DNA from: Nitrospirota bacterium
GTDB lineage: Bacteria > Nitrospirota > Thermodesulfovibrionia > Thermodesulfovibrionales > UBA1546
NCBI GenBank assembly: GCA_016208915.1
Contig: JACQXE010000001.1
Location: 1 to 31,394, forward strand
Direction of reading: 5' to 3'
DNA length: 31,394 nt
Below the pieces are notes generated by a model. It saw only the letters and a list, made by a program, of their open reading frames with translations. It made no database searches and was not told the origin of the DNA. Made by a program: the position numbers and the translations under genes. How positions within the stretch are numbered: position 1 is the stretch's first letter; every line of letters begins with the position of its first letter. Shown piece after piece: positions 14,194 through 20,735 of this stretch.

Positions 14194-15075
14194 TCATTGC
14201 TTGGTAAGGATCTCTATAATCTCCTTGTATCTCGCAGCGGTCTTTTCAATGATCTCATCCGGAAGTTTTGGGCCCGGGTATGTCTGGTTCCAGTCGAGGG
14301 TTAAAAGATAATCCCGTACAATCTGCTTGTCAAAGCTGTCCTGACCTTTTCCGGGTTTATAGTCCTTCATAGACCAGAACCTCGATGAATCAGGCGTAAG
14401 AAGTTCATCAATCAGGATTAGTTTATTCTCATAAATTCCAAATTCCATTTTTGTATCAGCAATAATGATGCCCTTCTTCTCTGCCATTGCCCTCGCCTTT
14501 TTGTAAACCTTAAGGCTTGTATCCCTGAGCTTGTTTGCAGTATCATCACCAACAATCTTTTTCATCTCATCAAAGTTTATGTTTATGTCATGCCCTGCTT
14601 CAGCCTTTGTGCTCGGTGTGAATATCGGCTCATCCAGTCTTGATGATTCAACAAGCCCTTGAGGAAGTTTTATACCGCAGACAGTTCCTTTCTCGTTGTA
14701 TTCTTTCCATCCCGAGCCTGAGAGATAGCCTCGTACAATACATTCAACAGGCATCGGCTTTGCTTTCTTAACAAACATGCTCCTTCCTTCAAGGATGTCG
14801 CTGTATTTATGGAGAACCTGTGGATAATCCTTAACATCAGTTGCAATGATGTGATTTTCGATTATATCCTTCATCTGTTTAAACCAGTATATTGATATCT
14901 GCGTCAACACTCTGCCCTTATCAGGAATCCCATTGGGCAACACAACATCGAACGCTGAGACCCTGTCTGTTGCGACAATTAACAAGTTATCCCCAACTTC
15001 ATACACATCTCTAACCTTCCCGCGCTTTTGAAGTTTTACATCTTTAAAATTCGTCTCCATAATAACATCAGCCAT
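14194..15075 (-). CDS. purC: Phosphoribosylaminoimidazole-succinocarboxamide synthase
   Basis: Long-form SAICAR synthetase blocks ([25 protein letters not shown]-like). Start overlaps the ATPase stop by 8 nt. Confidence 0.9.
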
Positions 15076-17791
15076 TTTTTCTCCTCCTTATTAATTTTTC
15101 TACCTCAACTGCAAAGAATACTACAGATGACAGGCCGAGTGTAAACACCAATTCACCGAAAGTCAAAGGCTCTGTCTTGAATATAGGATTTAAGAAAGGC
15201 ACATATATTGTTGCCATCTGCAAGGCAAAAGTCAAAGCAAAGGCGCCAACAAGAGGCTTGTTTGAAAACAACCCCTGCTTGAAGAGGGATTCCCGGTCTG
15301 ACCTTATTGCGAGCACATGCCCCATCTGGCTTAAACACAAAACAGTAAAGACCATTGTCTGCCAGTGGGCATGGCCTGTTTTGATAGACCAGGCCTGTGT
15401 AAATAGGGATACAGCACCCATCAGGAGCCCTACCCATACGATGTGGATACCAAGGCCATGGGCAAATATGCTCTCCTGCGGGTGTCTTGGCGGTCTGTTC
15501 ATGACCCCTTTTTCCGATGGTTCTGCGGCAAGGGCAAGTCCCGGCAGGCCGTCAGTAACAAGATTGATCCAGAGTATATGGATCGGCAATAAGGGGATCG
15601 GTAAGCCGAAAAACGGGGCAAGGAATATGGTCCATATCTCACCTGAATTGCTCGTCATTGTATATTTTATAAACTTGCGGATATTGTCAAAGATTCGCCT
15701 GCCTTCTTTTACCGCCTTCACAATAGTAGCGAAATTGTCGTCCAGGAGTATCATATGGGCCGCTTCTTTTGAGACATCCGTCCCTGTTATCCCCATTGCA
15801 ACTCCGATATCCGCCCTCTTTAATGCAGGGGCGTCATTTACACCATCCCCTGTCATAGCCACGAACTGGCCCTTGTCCTGAAGCGCCTTGATTATTTTGA
15901 GTTTTTGCTCAGGCGCCACCCTCGCATAGACCCTGAGATGGTCAACCCTTTCCTCAAACTCCTCCATGGACAGCTTTTCAAGTTCCCTTCCGGTAATGAC
16001 TGTCTTTGAGCCATCTTCAATAATGCCGAGCCTTCTGGCTATCGCCATTGCCGTGATCGGATGATCGCCTGTTATCATCACAGGCTTAATGCCTGCTGTT
16101 TTACATAATGAAACAGCCTCTTTTGCCTCTTCCCTCGGAGGGTCCATTATCCCGACCAGACCTAAAATAGTAAGCGATTTCTCAACGTGCTCAGGCGACA
16201 TGTCATCAGGCAGCGCATTCCAGTCCCTCATGGCAATACCGAGGACCCTCAGCCCGTCCGCTGCCATCCTGTTGTTCATCCTGTGAAGCTTCTGCACATC
16301 AAAAGGCATTAATCCATCTGATGTGAGAATGTTATCCGCCTTCTCAAGCAGCACATCCACACCGCCTTTTGTAAAAGAGATGATACTGCTTTCACCCTCA
16401 CCCCCTCCCATCAAGGGAGGGGGAATAGTTGGGATGTCTCTCATCAATGGAGAAGAAAGTCCCCTCTCCCCTTGCGGGAGAGGGATAGGGTGAGGGGGGA
16501 TTCTATGAAACGTCGTCATGCACTTTCTGTCAGAATCAAACGGTATCTCTGCAACACGTGGAAACTCTTTTTCCAGCTTGCTTTTGTCAAAGTCTTTTTC
16601 TTTGGCGATGTTATACAAAGCAGTTTCTGTCGGATCGCCGATGATGACGCCGGACGCATCCTTCTGTGCGTCATTGCTTAAAGCCAATGCTGTCATTAGA
16701 TAGGTGTGGGGTGTGAAATGTGAAGTGCCTGTTATATCTTCCTGACTCCTGACTATTTTCCCATCCACATAAATCTCTTCCACAGTCATCTTGTTCAGTG
16801 TGAGGGTGCCTGTCTTGTCTGAACAGATGTATGTGACAGAGCCGAGTGTTTCTACTGCAGGGAGTTTTCTTATAAGGGCGTTCTGCTTTACAAGCTTTTT
16901 GGCCCCAAGCGCAAGTGATATGGTTATTACAGCCGGAAGCGCCTCGGGTATTGCTGCAACTGCGAGGGATATGGCGGTCAAGAGCATCAACAATGGAGGT
17001 TCGCCCCTGAAAACCCCTATGCCGAATACAATGGCACATATTGCAAGCACTGCAAAGGCAAGATTTTTTCCGAACGTTGCAAGCCTTTTCTGAAGAGGGG
17101 TTTTGACCTCTTCCTCTTCCTGAAGCATGGTGGCGATCTTTCCAAGTTCTGTATTCATGCCGGTGGCCACGACAATGCCGGCGCCTCTGCCATATGATAC
17201 TGCAGTGCCTTTGTAGGCCATGTTCTTTCTATCGCCCATGGGCAGGTGTTCGTCGTGCAGTGCTTTGGTGTTTTTTTCAACAGGCACGGATTCTCCGGTA
17301 AGAGCAGCCTCTTCCGCCTTTAACTGGGCGGTCTCTGTAAGTCTCATATCAGCCGGCACAACCTTGCCGGCTTCGAGCAACACGACATCACCCGGCACAA
17401 GCTCTGATGCAGGAATATTCGTATGCTCACCGCTTCTTAATACAAGGGCGGTGTGAGCAGCCATTTTCTTAAGGGCAGCCATGGCCTTTTCAGCCCGGTA
17501 TTCCTGAACAAAGCCGATCACTGCATTCAGCAGTACTATTACTATTATCGCAATCGTGTCTTCAGGGTCTCCGACAATCCCTGATATGATTGCAGCAGCA
17601 ATAAGGACAAGGATCATGAAGTCCTTGAACTGGTCAAGGAACATCATGAACGGCGTCTTTTTCTTTTTCACTTTTAATTCATTCGGGCCGTATTCCAGGA
17701 TCCGCTTCCGGGCCTCTTCTGAAGATACACCCTTTAAAGACGAGTTCAGTTCTTCAATAACATCTTCAATTGTTTTTTGGTGCCAGCGCAT
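15068..17791 (-). CDS. P-type cation-transporting ATPase (type IIA/IIB Ca2+-ATPase-like)
   Basis: DKTGTLT phosphorylation motif, [17 protein letters not shown], 10 TM helices; 907 aa. Contains a ~42-aa in-frame insert (see repeat at 16376-16501). Confidence 0.9.
16376..16501 (-). repeat. In-frame 126-nt GC-rich nested palindromic element inside the P-type ATPase N-domain (encodes [42 protein letters not shown])
   Basis: Minus strand reads CCCTCACCC ... [CCCTCTCCC-GCAA-GGGAGAGGG] ... [CCCCCTCCC-TTGAT-GGGAGGGGG] ... GGGTGAGGG. That is two 9-bp hairpins nested inside an outer 9-bp stem. The insert interrupts the normally short segment between FDSDRK...FHR and FTKGG. Confidence 0.5.
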
Positions 17792-17811
17792 ATATCTCCC
17801 TTATTGAGTTC

Positions 17812-17854
17812 CCGGATTCAAAAGAGCCGGGGCAATGAAAACATTCCCCCGGCT
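17812..17854 (-). terminator. Intrinsic terminator after the zf-TFIIB gene (GAGCCGGGG / CCCCGGCTC stem, then CTCTTTTGAATCC)
   Basis: 9-bp GC-rich hairpin read on the minus strand immediately 3' of the 17884 stop. Confidence 0.5.
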
Positions 17855-17883
17855 CCTGAATCTTGTGTTTTGTATTCTCTTAA

Positions 17884-18189
17884 TTATTTTTTGAAAACAC
17901 TGAACAGTTTGTCCAATCCGCCTTTTTCAAGCTTTGCTACTGCCTCAAGTTCTCCTGCATCAAGCCAGATCCCTTCACACTCAGAGCACTTGTCCACCTT
18001 TATTTCTTTGTAATCTATCTCAATTAGTTCCATTCCGCACTTGGGACATCTCATGGAATGAAGTTCCTTCAGTTTTTTCCTTTCCTCTTTCTTAAGCATC
18101 TTATGTTTCTCTTCCTCAAGCTTCTTCTTTTTATCAAACTCCATCCTTGAAATGTACTCTGCTTCTCTCTCACTTGGTTTCATTGACAT
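17884..18189 (-). CDS. zf-TFIIB-type zinc-ribbon protein with N-terminal charged coiled region
   Basis: CPKCG...(22 aa)...CSECEGIWLDAGELE is the zf-TFIIB (PF13453-like) signature; GAGGAGG RBS. Confidence 0.65.
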   Translation of the reverse strand: MSMKPSEREAEYISRMEFDKKKKLEEEKHKMLKKEERKKLKELHSMRCPKCGMELIEIDYKEIKVDKCSECEGIWLDAGELEAVAKLEKGGLDKLFSVFKK

Positions 18190-18233
18190 TTCCTCCTCTG
18201 TTAATTTTATTGAACTTGCTTTTTGCCTTTGTT

Positions 18234-18277
18234 AACAACCTTTTTGCCCAGATGAATTCAGTGGCGAAGATTCCCAG
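18234..18277. repeat. Copy A of a 44-nt duplicated segment (89 percent identical to 19428-19471)
   Basis: AACAACCTTTTTGCCCAGATGAATTCAGTGGCGAAGATTCCCAG vs AACAACCTTCTTGCCCAGATGAATTCCGTGGCAAGGATGCCCAG. Minus-strand translation is LGIFATEFIWAKRLL, in frame directly after the TGA of the 18278-18550 ORF. Confidence 0.6.
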
Positions 18278-18550
18278 TCACATTTTGTTATTAACCTTGA
18301 TCATCTCTATGGGCAGTTCCCTGCCACAATGCTTGCAAACTATTGCATCTTCTTTAATAATCTCTGCACAGTAGGGACATCTTTTGGTATATCCTTTAGA
18401 TACCATAGGTGGAAGCAATGCAATAACAATAATAAGCAAAGGGAAAAGGGCACATAATATAAACCACCATATCGGGCTGCGCCCTTTTCTTATAGCTATA
18501 ATGCTCCCCATAATACCTGCAATAGTAAGCAGAATAACATATCTAAACAA
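18278..18550 (-). CDS. Small membrane protein (2 TM) with C-terminal CxxC...CxxC zinc ribbon
   Basis: 90 aa; hydrophobic N-terminus then CPYCAEIIKEDAIVCKHCG. The stop is followed in frame by a PGPGW-like C-terminal motif relic. Confidence 0.5.
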   Translation of the reverse strand: MFRYVILLTIAGIMGSIIAIRKGRSPIWWFILCALFPLLIIVIALLPPMVSKGYTKRCPYCAEIIKEDAIVCKHCGRELPIEMIKVNNKM

Positions 18551-18607
18551 TGGGATTCTCTACTTTCTTATGATTATTTGTTTATCTCTTTTGTATATCT
18601 CCCACAC

Positions 18608-19384
18608 CTATAAATGGCACTGCCCCACCGCCTGTAACCTAAGCTCTATAAGGTCCGGTGAAATATTTGCCCTTTGTAGCCTCAGGGACTCTGCCTCTGC
18701 CTTTGCTGCTGTAATCTTCTGTTCTGCCTCTATCTTTATCCTCTCCAGGTCCCTATTCGCCTTCAGTGCAAGCTGTTCTGCTGTCTGCTTTGACTCAATG
18801 GCTTCCATAAATATCTTGGAGAAGCTGAAACCGACGATAGAGAATGCATCAACCGCTATGTTGTACGCCATGAGCCTTTCAGTAAGGTTTGCTCTCATTG
18901 CATCGCTCACCGCTGACCTCTTTGTGATAAGCTCTTCTGCTGAATACCTGGCTGACACAGCCTTTACCACCTCCTGCACTGCAGGGTCTATGATTCGCTC
19001 CTTAAAGTCTATGCCGATGGTTTGATAGACAATATTTGCCTTATCAGGAACTATGTGATAGTTAATCGCAACAGTAGAGCTTACATCCTGAAGGTTGGAT
19101 GATGCAGCTGCTGCATCAGTCGTTGCCTTCTGCACCTTGACATCCATTATGGCAACCGTCTGCATTATAGGCACCCTGAAATGCAGCCCTTCATCCAACA
19201 CTTTATCCTGAACGGCGCCAAAATTAAGGACAATCCCTCTTTGACCTGCACCAACCTGAACCCATGGCCTTAAAAACAGAAAAAACACCAGAATTGCTCC
19301 AATAATCAGCGCCACCCTCATAGGACCTTTCTTCATCGCAGACTGCATTACCTCCTTAGCCCTGTAAACATCACTTTCATCCAT
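18608..19384 (-). CDS. SPFH/band-7 (prohibitin-like) membrane protein
   Basis: One N-terminal TM then an SPFH domain (GIVLNFGAVQDKVLDEGLHFRVP...) and C-terminal coiled-coil. Start taken at the internal ATG (MDESDVY) with a GGAGGC RBS 8 nt upstream. Confidence 0.75.
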   Translation of the reverse strand: MDESDVYRAKEVMQSAMKKGPMRVALIIGAILVFFLFLRPWVQVGAGQRGIVLNFGAVQDKVLDEGLHFRVPIMQTVAIMDVKVQKATTDAAAASSNLQDVSSTVAINYHIVPDKANIVYQTIGIDFKERIIDPAVQEVVKAVSARYSAEELITKRSAVSDAMRANLTERLMAYNIAVDAFSIVGFSFSKIFMEAIESKQTAEQLALKANRDLERIKIEAEQKITAAKAEAESLRLQRANISPDLIELRLQAVGQCHL

Positions 19385-19606
19385 CTTGCTGCCTCCTTTT
19401 GATTTTAAATTATGTTTAAAAACTTTTAACAACCTTCTTGCCCAGATGAATTCCGTGGCAAGGATGCCCAGCCCTATTGGTATTACAATTATAGCAGGTC
19501 CCGGCAATACAATCATTGCAATGCCGGCCATAAGAATTGTGAAGCCGACTATTGCTATTATCAGCCTTCTCGCCTGCTGGACGGTTCTAAGCGTCAACGG
19601 TGTCAT
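19385..19606 (-). CDS. In-frame upstream 74-codon two-TM segment resembling PGPGW-family small membrane proteins (LPGP...LGILATEFIWARRLL); either an N-terminal extension of the SPFH protein or a separate product
   Basis: No stop codon separates it from the SPFH ORF; it contains copy B (19428-19471) of the 44-nt duplicated segment. Family assignment is from memory of the LPGPG...LA.EF.WA.R motif. Confidence 0.35.
19428..19471. repeat. Copy B of the 44-nt duplicated segment
   Basis: See copy A at 18234-18277. Confidence 0.6.
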
Positions 19607-19673
19607 GGGTTATTTATCTCCTCAAGCATGCTCCAGAGTTTTGATTTGTCCCCGTCCTTTACCATTGGAACCT

Positions 19674-20321
19674 TCACCTATTTCCCTTTATACTCCGTTC
19701 GCTGATGAGTTCGAAAACATCTTCCGCTGAATTGTAGTAATATATGCTTCCTGTTCTTATGTTGTAATACCAGCCGTGGAGATGAAGCGCACCTGTGTTT
19801 AATGCATCCAGAACAAAGGGATATGTCTGGATGTTATTCAATTGGCAAAGCACGTTTTCCTCTTCGGTGATCCGAAGACGGATTGCAGCAGGCGCTTCCT
19901 GATAATGCCTTAAAACAATTTTTTTCACAGAATCAGCCAGTTGAAGCCATTCTCTTAAATGAGGCATATTATTAAATTCCTTTTCATCCCTGTACAGCGC
20001 TTGCATTGCTCCACAATCGGAATGACCGCATATGATGATATCTTTTACCCTCAAATCCAGCACCGCAAACTCGATTGCCGCTGCTACGCTGTTCTTGTCC
20101 TTTATGGCATCATAGGGAGGTATAATGTTTCCCATATTCCTTACTATGAAAAGCTCCCCCGGTCTGCTTTGAGTAACCAGATTAGGATCTATCCGTGAGT
20201 CAGCACACGTTATGAAAAGAATCTCCGGTGATTGTCCTTCGGACAGCCTACGGAAAAAATCCTTTTCCTTACCGAAGTGCAACTCCTGAAAATTCCAGAT
20301 GCCTTTATATAGTCTATCCAT
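19674..20321 (-). CDS. Beta-class carbonic anhydrase
   Basis: CADSRID and ICGHSDCGAM zinc-ligand motifs; 215 aa. Confidence 0.9.
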   Translation of the reverse strand: MDRLYKGIWNFQELHFGKEKDFFRRLSEGQSPEILFITCADSRIDPNLVTQSRPGELFIVRNMGNIIPPYDAIKDKNSVAAAIEFAVLDLRVKDIIICGHSDCGAMQALYRDEKEFNNMPHLREWLQLADSVKKIVLRHYQEAPAAIRLRITEEENVLCQLNNIQTYPFVLDALNTGALHLHGWYYNIRTGSIYYYNSAEDVFELISERSIKGNR

Positions 20322-20538
20322 ATATGCTGTAAAGTTCCGGGGCTTCAGTCTCAGTCACTGGTTTTGCTCTGTACATTTTGAGGACGATCTTGTCGCTGAA
20401 CCAATACGTAATAAAGTTTATTCCAAAGGCCATAATTAGGGCAAAGGTCATCCCTGTTTTACCTCCAAGCAAACCTCCTACAAACACCAGCATAAGGGTA
20501 AGTGTTACCATTAAGACCGTTGTCTTTAATCCGTTCAT
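20314..20538 (-). pseudogene. HtpX-like protease N-terminal fragment (74 aa; lacks HEXXH domain)
   Basis: MNGLK...FGINFITYWFSDKIVLKMYRAKPVTETEAPELY matches the HtpX N-terminal two-TM region up to the conserved PELY. It then stops, overlapping the carbonic anhydrase start by 8 nt. AGGAGG RBS present. Confidence 0.5.
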
Positions 20539-20565
20539 TTCCTGCCTCCTGCTTTTTTAAAACAA

Positions 20566-20613
20566 TAAAAAAAAGACCTTTACCACGCATTCTTAAGCAC
20601 GCGGTAAAGGTCT
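20566..20613 (-). terminator. Intrinsic terminator (AGACCTTTACC...GGTAAAGGTCT stem, then an 8-U tract on the minus strand), 25 nt upstream of the htpX-stub RBS
   Basis: 11-bp stem plus poly-T read directly. Confidence 0.55.
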
Positions 20614-20735
20614 TGCTTGTTAGTTTTACCTAACCAGCGGTACCGGGACTGTTCAGACCGTGTTGACGATAGCCGCTGACTCAGCTACTCCCCTTTACTG
20701 TTTTTAAATTACCTTAATCCTCAAACAAAAGTCAA
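20614..20735 (-). ncRNA. Putative structured leader or small RNA (~140 nt) from a TTGACT-18-TAATTT promoter to the terminator at 20566-20613
   Basis: Promoter-like hexamers at 20730-20735 and 20706-20711. Internal hairpins (CAGCGG...CCGCUG; GUUAG-GUAAAA-CUAAC). AGUAAAGG near the 5' end can pair with the terminator's 5' arm CCUUUACC, giving an antiterminator option. Class not identified. Confidence 0.3.

What the first reader, a model, noticed from the sequence alone, without database searches (positions are those of the whole stretch)
18234..19471. 44-nt duplicated segment encoding a PGPGW-like C-terminal motif, once inside a gene and once as an in-frame relic after a stop codon
Copies at 18234-18277 and 19428-19471 are 89 percent identical. 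On the minus strand both encode LGI(F/L)ATEFIWA(K/R)RLL. Copy B lies within the two-TM leader joined in frame to the SPFH gene. Copy A follows the TGA of the 90-aa Zn-ribbon membrane protein in frame, as if a PGPGW-like gene had acquired a zinc-ribbon-encoding segment ending in a stop. Both copies sit just upstream of the RBS of the next gene (SPFH, zf-TFIIB), so a role as a shared 5'-UTR element is also conceivable.
Basis: seen in the sequence. Interest (0 to 1): 0.55.

Follow-up and report, generated by a model that had tools for sequence, protein, structure and literature searches.

The report
Leftover 3' end of a deleted gene
The second copy of the 44-nt segment is the decaying tail of a small membrane-protein gene (PGPGW family) that lost its front two-thirds in an old deletion; this is ordinary gene decay, not a new element.

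Summary
Copy A (18233-18277) and copy B (19427-19471) are 40/45 identical, and no shuffle of the window gave a second match. Both encode LGI(F/L)ATEFIWA(K/R)RLL on the minus strand.

Copy B is the 3' end of the only intact PGPGW gene. Copy A is a gene remnant. In 23 related loci a complete second PGPGW gene (P2) lies between the Zn-ribbon membrane gene (ZnR) and the zf-TFIIB gene. In the window about 211 nt are missing: the ZnR-P2 spacer plus P2 codons 1-45. Codon 46 therefore abuts the ZnR stop codon.

The same junction (ATGTGA|CYGGGAAT) occurs in six other contigs. There the remnant decays: W to G or R, a stop, an indel. Three differently placed deletions hit the same gene in other relatives.

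The remnant diverges faster than its flanking genes, has no RNA structure and matches no Rfam family. Its 3' half looks overwritten by copy B through gene conversion, which partly explains the 89% identity.

The idea that a PGPGW gene captured a zinc-ribbon segment is wrong, and the 5'-UTR idea is unsupported.

Also seen: a 55-nt frameshifting deletion in SPFH and a one-off in-frame PGPGW-SPFH ORF. Interest is low.

The parts
19385..19606 (-). PGPGW1: the only intact PGPGW-family coding segment in the window. It forms residues 1-74 of the 332-aa ORF and is a two-TM small membrane protein.
   Evidence: Pfam PF09656 hit of 66 bits (cutoff 23.3) over residues 14-65. TIGR02611 partial hit. tblastn of the whole window finds no other full copy.
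19427..19471 (-). Copy B: 15 codons, LGILATEFIWARRLL. This is the functional 3' end (second TM exit plus basic tail) of PGPGW1.
19385..19426 (-). PGPGW1 tail (KVFKHNLKSKGGSK) containing the SPFH Shine-Dalgarno sequence AAAGGAGG. There is no stop codon, so PGPGW1 runs in frame into SPFH.
   Evidence: Relatives end PGPGW1 by a 1-nt or 8-nt overlap with the SPFH ATG, in another frame. The window has 7 nt between GGAGG and ATG; L138 and L160 have 8.
18608..19384 (-). SPFH/Band_7 gene starting at its own ATG (19384). Its C-terminus is destroyed by a 55-nt frameshifting deletion whose junction lies at 18641/18640 (AG microhomology).
   Evidence: Pfam Band_7 hit, E=6.5e-32. Alignment with five relatives shows the 55 missing nt. 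Relatives end ...KIEANLKAIDKWNGILPQVTGGGAVPFIGVGDIQKR.
18278..18550 (-). ZnR: a 90-aa membrane protein with a C-terminal zinc ribbon. It is the conserved partner gene of SPFH and its stop codon is TGA at 18278-18280.
   Evidence: Pfam Zn_ribbon_3 hit, E=5.9e-9. Orthologues of 61-92% identity lie downstream of SPFH in about 100 loci.
18275..18280 (-). Deletion junction: the ZnR stop TGA is joined directly to PGPGW codon 46 (CTG).
   Evidence: Alignment with L003, L034 and L008. The same junction, ATGTGAC[TC]GGGAAT, occurs in L015, L081, L090, L107, L124 and L160.
18233..18277 (-). Copy A: the relic core, 15 codons LGIFATEFIWAKRLL, from the 5'-truncated second PGPGW gene. Nt 1-23 are orthologous to the relics of L090 and L124. 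Nt 24-45 are nearly identical to copy B.
18170..18232 (-). Relic tail (TKAKSKFNKINRGGNVNETK*). It carries the zf-TFIIB Shine-Dalgarno sequence (GGAGG, 18196-18192). The old PGPGW stop (TGA, 18172-18170) overlaps the zf-TFIIB start.
   Evidence: The tail is orthologous to the tail of the intact PGPGW gene that overlaps zf-TFIIB in L107. Coordinates were read.
17884..18189 (-). zf-TFIIB-type zinc-ribbon gene. The true start is probably the second ATG at 18183, because relatives begin MKPSE and that ATG lies 8 nt after GGAGG.
   Evidence: Pfam PF13453 hit, E=1.9e-15. Relatives' ORFs.

Best explanation
Copy A is a non-coding gene remnant. It comprises the last 15 codons, plus the basic tail, of a second PGPGW-family gene (P2) that once lay between the ZnR gene and the zf-TFIIB gene.

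Shown:
- The ancestral order HtpX/CA - PGPGW1 - SPFH - ZnR - PGPGW2 - zfTFIIB - P-type ATPase survives intact in relatives.
- Relative to those loci the window lacks about 211 nt: the ZnR-P2 spacer, the P2 start and P2 codons 1-45. Codon 46 now abuts the ZnR stop codon.
- The identical junction occurs in six other contigs.

Inferred:
- The deletion was a single old event whose product spread or persisted while the flanking genes recombined.
- The remnant is not translated. It has no start codon and no Shine-Dalgarno sequence, and it follows a stop.
- It survives because its last ~40 nt are the ribosome-binding region of zf-TFIIB, and because it is short.
- Its high similarity to copy B has two causes: common descent from PGPGW coding sequence, and a short gene-conversion tract (at least 20 nt, relic nt ~24-45) copied from PGPGW1 in the window's lineage.
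- P2 is dispensable because PGPGW1 remains, which explains why it was lost repeatedly.
For: 1. An intact PGPGW gene sits at this position, about 76 nt after ZnR, in 23 loci. Examples are L003, L008, L034, L096, L118 and L145. The nucleotide alignment places the window's gap exactly from the base after the ZnR TGA to P2 codon 46.

2. The junction ATGTGA|C[TC]GGGAAT is shared by L015, L081, L090, L107, L124 and L160.

3. The relic decays in those loci:
- TGG becomes GGG in L090 and L124.
- TGG becomes CGG in L107.
- L160 has an in-frame TAA.
- L015 and L081 have a 2-nt indel followed by scrambled sequence.
- L124 has a 1-nt insertion that puts ZnR out of frame with the relic.

4. Other, differently placed deletions hit the same gene:
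- L092 keeps P2 codons 1-11.
- L138 keeps the start of the ZnR-proximal spacer plus the P tail.
- L035 lost most of ZnR together with P2.

5. The relic tail is orthologous to the tail of the intact PGPGW gene that overlaps the zf-TFIIB start in L107. A fused PGPGW-zfTFIIB protein followed by the ATPase exists elsewhere. The relic is therefore the original PGPGW of a PGPGW-zfTFIIB-ATPase module.

6. The relic is 72-82% identical to the relics of L090 and L124. The flanking CDS are 89-92% identical, and their third codon positions 86-88%.

7. The relic is a mosaic. Nt 1-23 differ from the L090 relic at 1 site and from copy B at 4. Nt 24-45 differ from L090 at 9 sites and from copy B at 1 (Fisher p=0.017). 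In a window/L160 four-sequence comparison, 5 informative sites group the sequences by genome and 0 by orthology.

8. There is no RNA family hit and no excess structure.
Against: - No intact relative in hand combines the ZnR-proximal spacer with a PGPGW gene whose tail overlaps zf-TFIIB. All intact P2 genes have a different tail and a ~100-nt spacer before zf-TFIIB. L138 links the two only indirectly.
- Loci carrying the junction are not monophyletic in the ZnR or SPFH neighbour-joining trees (short sequences, support values not inspected). A single origin therefore needs later recombination in the flanks.
- In L107 and in L015/L081 the unit SPFH-ZnR-relic sits apart from an intact PGPGW-zfTFIIB pair. 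A simple deletion does not explain this.
- The gene-conversion inference rests on 45 nt.
- No expression data are available.
Confidence: 0.85

Rival explanations
1. Cassette insertion or mobility. The ancestral state was PGPGW-zfTFIIB-ATPase. The SPFH-ZnR segment then entered at the 3' end of PGPGW, by homology-facilitated illegitimate recombination or by Campbell-type integration of a circle, and duplicated the PGPGW 3' end. The two direct repeats would now allow precise excision, which regenerates an intact PGPGW-zfTFIIB pair and frees a movable SPFH-ZnR-relic unit.
For: - The 45-nt direct repeats exactly flank SPFH-ZnR.
- L107 has CA-PGPGW-zfTFIIB contiguous. Its PGPGW has a 5' part like the window's PGPGW1 and a tail like the window's relic tail. 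ZnR-relic lies 2.8 kb away beside the citrate-synthase gene.
- L015 and L081 have PGPGW-zfTFIIB-SPFH-ZnR-relic. The relocated unit begins ~28 nt before the SPFH ATG and ends ~25 nt into the relic.
- PGPGW-zfTFIIB-ATPase without SPFH-ZnR exists elsewhere.
Against: - 23 loci have a full second PGPGW at the relic's position.
- L138, L092 and L035 show independent deletions there, so deletion suffices to make the relic.
- No integrase, transposase or terminal inverted repeats lie in or beside the 1.15-kb segment.
- L107 is a single metagenome contig that ends inside SPFH.
- 45 nt at 89% identity is a poor substrate for RecA.
- This rival concerns how the repeats arose or behave. It does not change what copy A is.
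Confidence: 0.1
2. One reading: a PGPGW-like gene at 18190-18550 acquired a zinc-ribbon-encoding segment that ends in a stop codon, stranding its own C-terminus.
For: The relic is in frame with the ZnR ORF, and both proteins are small membrane proteins.
Against: - ZnR and PGPGW share no similarity (E=8.6; no PGPGW Pfam hit in ZnR at E<=1).
- ZnR orthologues, full length including the same C-terminus ...IEMIKVQNKM*, occur with SPFH in many loci without any PGPGW. In others they are followed by a ~76-nt spacer and a separate PGPGW gene.
Confidence: 0.02
3. The two copies are a shared cis-acting RNA element (5'-UTR or translational-coupling signal) placed before the ribosome-binding sites of SPFH and zf-TFIIB.
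For: Both copies end about 43 nt upstream of the next gene's ATG. The distance from the ZnR stop to the zf-TFIIB start is 88 nt in both the window and L090.
Against: - No Rfam match.
- Minimum free energies are no better than shuffles (z = 0.79 and -0.01).
- The relic diverges faster than third codon positions of its neighbours.
- zf-TFIIB genes in L035, L092 and L138 function with the segment deleted.
- In L107 and in L015/L081 the relic is not followed by any gene it could regulate.
Confidence: 0.03
4. UGA read-through or recoding extends ZnR by 35 residues encoded by the relic.
For: The relic is in frame. The stop context changed from TGA-T in relatives to TGA-C at the junction. From general knowledge, not tested here, TGA-C is a weak terminator in E. 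coli.
Against: - The shared frame is inherited from one junction, so it is not independent evidence.
- L124 breaks the frame, L160 has a stop after 19 codons, and the conserved Trp is lost in L090, L124 and L107.
Confidence: 0.02

Closest known systems
Bacterial gene remnants (short pseudogene fragments left by partial deletion of a redundant paralog)
   Same: - Homologous to a functional gene.
- Lacks a start codon and the 5' two-thirds of the gene.
- An intact copy sits at the same position in relatives.
- Inactivating changes accumulate in relatives.
- It evolves faster than its neighbours.
   Different: - It is very short (15 codons plus tail).
- It is butted exactly against the upstream gene's stop codon.
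- It is retained in several lineages, probably because it carries the next gene's ribosome-binding region.
- It is partly refreshed by gene conversion from the surviving paralog.
PGPGW family (Pfam PF09656; NCBIfam TIGR02611), two-TM proteins of unknown function
   Same: Copy B lies in a bona fide member (66 bits). Copy A aligns to profile positions 33-53.
   Different: Copy A lacks TM1, the PGPGW motif and a start codon. It scores 21.9 bits, below the 23.3-bit cutoff. It is a fragment derived from the family, not a member gene.
Direct repeats created by homology-facilitated illegitimate recombination or Campbell-type integration (partial duplication of the anchor gene flanking inserted DNA)
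   Same: Two direct copies of a gene's 3' end bracket a 1.15-kb two-gene segment. One relative (L107) looks like the empty site.
   Different: Relatives show a full-length second gene where the relic is, together with several independent deletions. The repeat is therefore better explained by paralog decay. No recombinase is present.
Concerted evolution (gene conversion) between a gene and its pseudogene copy
   Same: The relic's 3' half matches the same genome's functional copy better than it matches orthologous relics. This holds in both the window and L160.
   Different: The tract is tiny (about 20 nt) and the evidence is limited to 45 aligned positions.

Membership tests
PGPGW family gene (PF09656) | Full-length match to the profile above the gathering score (two TM helices around the PGPGW motif) | tested here: not met
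   The relic (18190-18277) scores 21.9 bits against a cutoff of 23.3 and covers profile positions 33-53 only. Copy B's gene scores 66 bits over positions 1-52.
PGPGW family gene (PF09656) | Own start codon and ribosome-binding site | tested here: not met
   The relic begins directly after the ZnR TGA. No ATG or GTG and no Shine-Dalgarno sequence lie upstream in frame.
Gene remnant / pseudogene fragment | Intact homologue at the syntenic position in relatives | tested here: met
   23 loci carry a complete PGPGW gene between ZnR and zfTFIIB or the ATPase. Alignment.
Gene remnant / pseudogene fragment | Relaxed constraint: disabling changes and faster divergence than neighbouring genes | tested here: met
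   W to G or R, a stop and an indel in the relics of L090, L124, L107, L160, L015 and L081. Identity is 72-82% against 89-92% for flanking CDS. Caveat: window-versus-L090 differences are biased to third positions, which I attribute to gene conversion from coding copies.
Structured cis-regulatory RNA / 5'-UTR element | Match to a known family or a thermodynamically unusual, conserved structure | tested here: not met
   No relevant Rfam match at E<=1. z-scores are 0.79 and -0.01.
Structured cis-regulatory RNA / 5'-UTR element | Conserved association with the regulated gene | tested here: not met
   zfTFIIB lacks the segment in L035, L092 and L138. The relic is not followed by zfTFIIB in L107, L015 and L081.
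Mobile element with target-site duplication | Transposase or integrase, terminal inverted repeats, short (2-14 bp) target duplication | tested here: not met
   Only SPFH and ZnR lie between the repeats. No terminal inverted repeats. The repeat is 45-53 nt and 85-89% identical.
Programmed stop-codon read-through | Conserved open, in-frame extension under purifying selection | tested here: not met
   L124 is out of frame, L160 has a stop, and Trp is lost in three loci.
Repeat-mediated excisable cassette | Detectable empty site and relocated unit whose ends fall in the repeat | tested here: inconclusive
   L107 and L015/L081 fit this. However, there are only three contigs, the left end of the unit in L107 is not available, and no circular junction can be tested with these tools.

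The most novel reading that the evidence does not exclude
The two PGPGW 3'-end repeats make SPFH-ZnR an excisable unit. Recombination between them precisely restores an intact PGPGW-zfTFIIB operon, as in L107. It also releases an SPFH-ZnR-relic unit that has re-inserted elsewhere at least twice: beside the citrate-synthase gene in L107, and after zfTFIIB in L015 and L081. The relic would then be the scar and handle of a recombinase-free mobile gene pair, kept similar to its partner by gene conversion.
Probability: 0.1. Interest if true: 0.4.

Novelty: new member of a known kind. Interest (0 to 1): 0.17.

Why it matters
The main value is for annotation. The 44-nt repeat should not be called a gene, a recoding site or a regulatory motif.

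The locus is also a clean small example of how operons of tiny membrane-protein genes evolve:
- a redundant paralog was lost at least four separate ways in related Thermodesulfovibrionales/Nitrospirota genomes;
- the leftover was kept where it carries the next gene's ribosome-binding site;
- the leftover was partly homogenised with the surviving copy.

The window's SPFH gene and its 332-aa PGPGW-SPFH ORF look damaged or atypical. They should not be taken as a natural domain fusion without further evidence.

Tried and rejected
- Exact-protein look-ups of the window's 332-aa ORF, SPFH from its own ATG, ZnR and zfTFIIB found nothing on record. No same-species contig was available to test for assembly error.
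- The first neighbour-joining tree, on a 410-nt SPFH-end-plus-ZnR block, was spoiled by gaps. The ZnR-only and SPFH-only trees are poorly resolved and mutually incongruent. I use them only to say that junction-bearing loci are not obviously monophyletic and that the flanks look recombined.
- A protein search with the PGPGW+SPFH junction region found no fused homologue among the best 120 of 631 hits. All covered 60% of the query or less and had a single Pfam domain, apart from two PGPGW+zfTFIIB fusions.
- The Rfam scan of 17700-20700 gave only a spurious eukaryotic lncRNA hit, below threshold.
- The promoter/terminator scan gave nothing near copy A above shuffle expectation.
- A literature search for 'PGPGW' gave two irrelevant papers.
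- I rejected recurrent identical deletions. The junction has essentially no microhomology (TGA|TCAGG versus GGG|CTGGG).
- I rejected the idea that the ZnR N-terminal TM region is a diverged PGPGW.

Full report
**Observation**

On the minus strand the region reads as follows:
- carbonic anhydrase (CA), 19674-20321;
- a 332-aa ORF, 18608-19606. Residues 14-65 match Pfam PGPGW (66 bits) and residues 117-305 match Band_7/SPFH;
- a 90-aa membrane protein with a C-terminal zinc ribbon (ZnR), 18278-18550;
- an 88-nt gap;
- a zf-TFIIB-type zinc-ribbon gene, 17884-18189;
- a P-type ATPase, 15068-17791.

The repeat is real. Segments 18232-18284 and 19426-19478 are 85% identical over 53 nt. The 45-nt core is 40/45 identical. 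A 34-nt sub-pattern with up to 3 mismatches hits only these two places, and none of 100 shuffles gave any match.

Both copies encode LGI(F/L)ATEFIWA(K/R)RLL. The stretch after the ZnR TGA, translated alone, hits PGPGW profile positions 33-53 of 53 (E=1.2e-4). The whole window holds only one intact PGPGW gene plus this fragment.

**What the relic is**

I collected 80 genome loci with the SPFH protein and 80 metagenome loci with the ZnR protein. I mapped the window's six proteins onto them. The relatives are MAGs labelled mostly Thermodesulfovibrionales or Nitrospirota.

In 23 loci a complete 73-81-aa PGPGW gene (P2) lies about 76 nt downstream of ZnR. It is usually followed by zfTFIIB and the ATPase. 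Examples are L003, L008, L034, L096, L118/L119 and L145. Several of these also have PGPGW1 upstream of SPFH.

Nucleotide alignment shows that the window matches these loci through the ZnR stop codon. It then lacks the spacer, the P2 start and P2 codons 1-45. It resumes at codon 46, CTG GGA ATC. In L003 the missing stretch is 76 + 135 = 211 nt.

Copy A is therefore the 3' remnant of a 5'-truncated paralog. Homology between the two copies begins exactly at 18277. The few extra matches upstream fall in ZnR coding sequence and reflect chance.

**Age and decay**

The identical junction, ATGTGA|C[TC]GGGAAT, is present in six other contigs: L015, L081, L090, L107, L124 and L160. The junction has essentially no microhomology, so I infer a single old event.

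In those loci the remnant is decaying:
- the conserved Trp codon is GGG in L090 and L124, and CGG in L107;
- L160 has an in-frame TAA;
- L015 and L081 have a 2-nt indel followed by unrelated sequence;
- a 1-nt insertion in L124 puts ZnR out of frame with the relic.

Against L090 and L124, the relic and its tail are 72-82% identical to the window. The flanking ZnR and zfTFIIB genes are 89-92% identical, and their third codon positions 86-88%.

The same gene has been damaged independently in other relatives:
- L092 keeps only P2 codons 1-11;
- L138 keeps the first bases of the ZnR-proximal spacer and the P tail;
- L035 lost most of ZnR together with P2.

P2 is evidently dispensable when PGPGW1 is present.

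**Which PGPGW was it?**

The relic's tail (TKAKSKFNKINRGGNVNETK*) ends in a TGA that overlaps the zfTFIIB start. It is clearly orthologous to the tail of the intact PGPGW gene that overlaps zfTFIIB in L107 (TKAKNTFSKIKKGGITDETK*). L015 and L081 show the same overlapping arrangement.

A fused PGPGW-zfTFIIB protein followed directly by a P-type ATPase exists in another metagenome. PGPGW-zfTFIIB-ATPase is thus a recurring module, and the relic is what remains of that module's own PGPGW.

The intact P2 genes in hand have a different tail and a ~100-nt spacer before zfTFIIB. L138 bridges the two states, because it retains both the ZnR-proximal spacer start and the overlapping-type tail.

**Why the two copies are so alike**

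Relic nt 1-23 differ at 1 site from the L090 relic and at 4 sites from copy B. Relic nt 24-45 differ at 9 sites from L090 but at only 1 from copy B (Fisher p=0.017).

I also compared the relic and PGPGW1 of the window and of L160. Five informative sites group the sequences by genome and none by orthology.

This is the signature of gene conversion from the functional PGPGW1 3' end into the relic. It also explains why differences between the window's and L090's relics are biased to third codon positions. The sample is only 45 nt, so I hold this as probable, not proven.

**Rejected functions**

- There is no relevant Rfam match.
- Neither copy folds better than shuffles.
- zfTFIIB does without the segment in L035, L092 and L138.
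- In L107, L015 and L081 the relic precedes no gene it could regulate.
- ZnR shows no similarity to PGPGW. It is a conserved SPFH partner in many loci without PGPGW.
- Read-through is not supported, for the frame and decay reasons given above.

**Open point**

In L107 the order is ZnR-relic, citrate synthase, TerC, CA, an intact PGPGW, then zfTFIIB. The intact PGPGW has a 5' part like the window's PGPGW1 and a tail like the window's relic tail. In L015 and L081 the order is ATPase, PGPGW, zfTFIIB, SPFH, ZnR, relic.

These arrangements fit recombination between the two direct repeats, which would delete SPFH-ZnR, together with relocation of an SPFH-ZnR-relic unit. Three contigs and no recombinase do not establish this, and I give it about 10%.

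**Other lesions in the window**

- SPFH carries a 55-nt deletion at 18641/18640 that is absent from all five aligned relatives. It shifts the frame and removes the conserved C-terminus.
- PGPGW1 has no stop codon. The spacer between GGAGG and the SPFH ATG is 7 nt here and 8 nt in L138 and L160, which puts PGPGW1 in frame with SPFH.
- No such fusion appears among the best 120 database hits.
- HtpX is reduced to a 74-aa N-terminal fragment abutting CA.

**Verdict**

The feature is an ordinary gene remnant with a small gene-conversion twist, and it is of low interest.

Noticed in passing
window 18630-18650 (junction 18641/18640), minus strand: The SPFH gene has a 55-nt deletion with AG microhomology, absent from L003, L015, L090, L107 and L124. 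It shifts the frame and replaces the conserved C-terminus KIEANLKAIDKWNGILPQVTGGGAVPFIGVGDIQKR with LQAVGQCHL*. The intact ending is still readable in another frame. This is probably a pseudogene or a variant allele.
   Followed up: yes
window 19384-19426, minus strand: PGPGW1 has no stop codon and runs in frame into SPFH, giving the 332-aa ORF. Relatives terminate PGPGW1 by a 1-nt or 8-nt overlap with the SPFH ATG. No PGPGW-SPFH fusion was seen among the 120 best database hits, but two PGPGW-zfTFIIB fusions exist (P0054, P0087).
   Followed up: partly
window 16392-16496 (inside the P-type ATPase ORF 15068-17791, minus strand): An in-frame palindromic insert of about 105 nt lies here. Its arms read TCACCCTCACCCCCTCCC... 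and ...GGGAGAGGGATAGGGTGA, with internal CCCTCTCCC-N5-GGGAGAGGG units. It encodes ...[32 protein letters not shown].... Alignments to all relatives break at 16380-16504. It looks like a REP/MITE-like element tolerated inside a coding sequence.
   Followed up: partly
window 20314-20538 and 20569-20706, minus strand: Only a 74-aa N-terminal fragment of the HtpX protease gene remains, ending at the CA start. Relatives such as L003 and L119 appear to keep a longer htpX here: L003 has an ORF with an HtpX-like C-terminus just upstream of SPFH. Upstream is a leader conserved in L003, L035, L119, L138 and L160. It contains a 17-bp hairpin followed by a T-run (20614-20573) and has no Rfam match.
   Followed up: no
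window 18183-18189: The zf-TFIIB gene probably starts at the second ATG (18183). Relatives begin MKPSE, and GGAGG (18196-18192) lies 8 nt upstream of that ATG but only 2 nt upstream of the first.
   Followed up: partly
loci L001-L160: The SPFH protein is 74-91% identical, and ZnR 61-92% identical, across MAGs labelled as Nitrospirota, Desulfobacterota, Elusimicrobia, Spirochaetota, Ignavibacteriales, Peptococcaceae and others. The SPFH-ZnR pair is conserved as a unit. This means unusually strong conservation, horizontal spread or mis-binning. ZnR may play the role that NfeD plays beside other SPFH genes (speculation).
   Followed up: no
window 18278-18550 versus L003, L015, L090, L107: The window's ZnR looks mosaic. 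Its N-terminus and its C-terminus (…KVNNKM) resemble L090 and L107. Its central TM segment (PIWWFILCALFPLLIIVIALLPPMVSKG) is identical to L003. This suggests recombination within the 270-nt gene.
   Followed up: no
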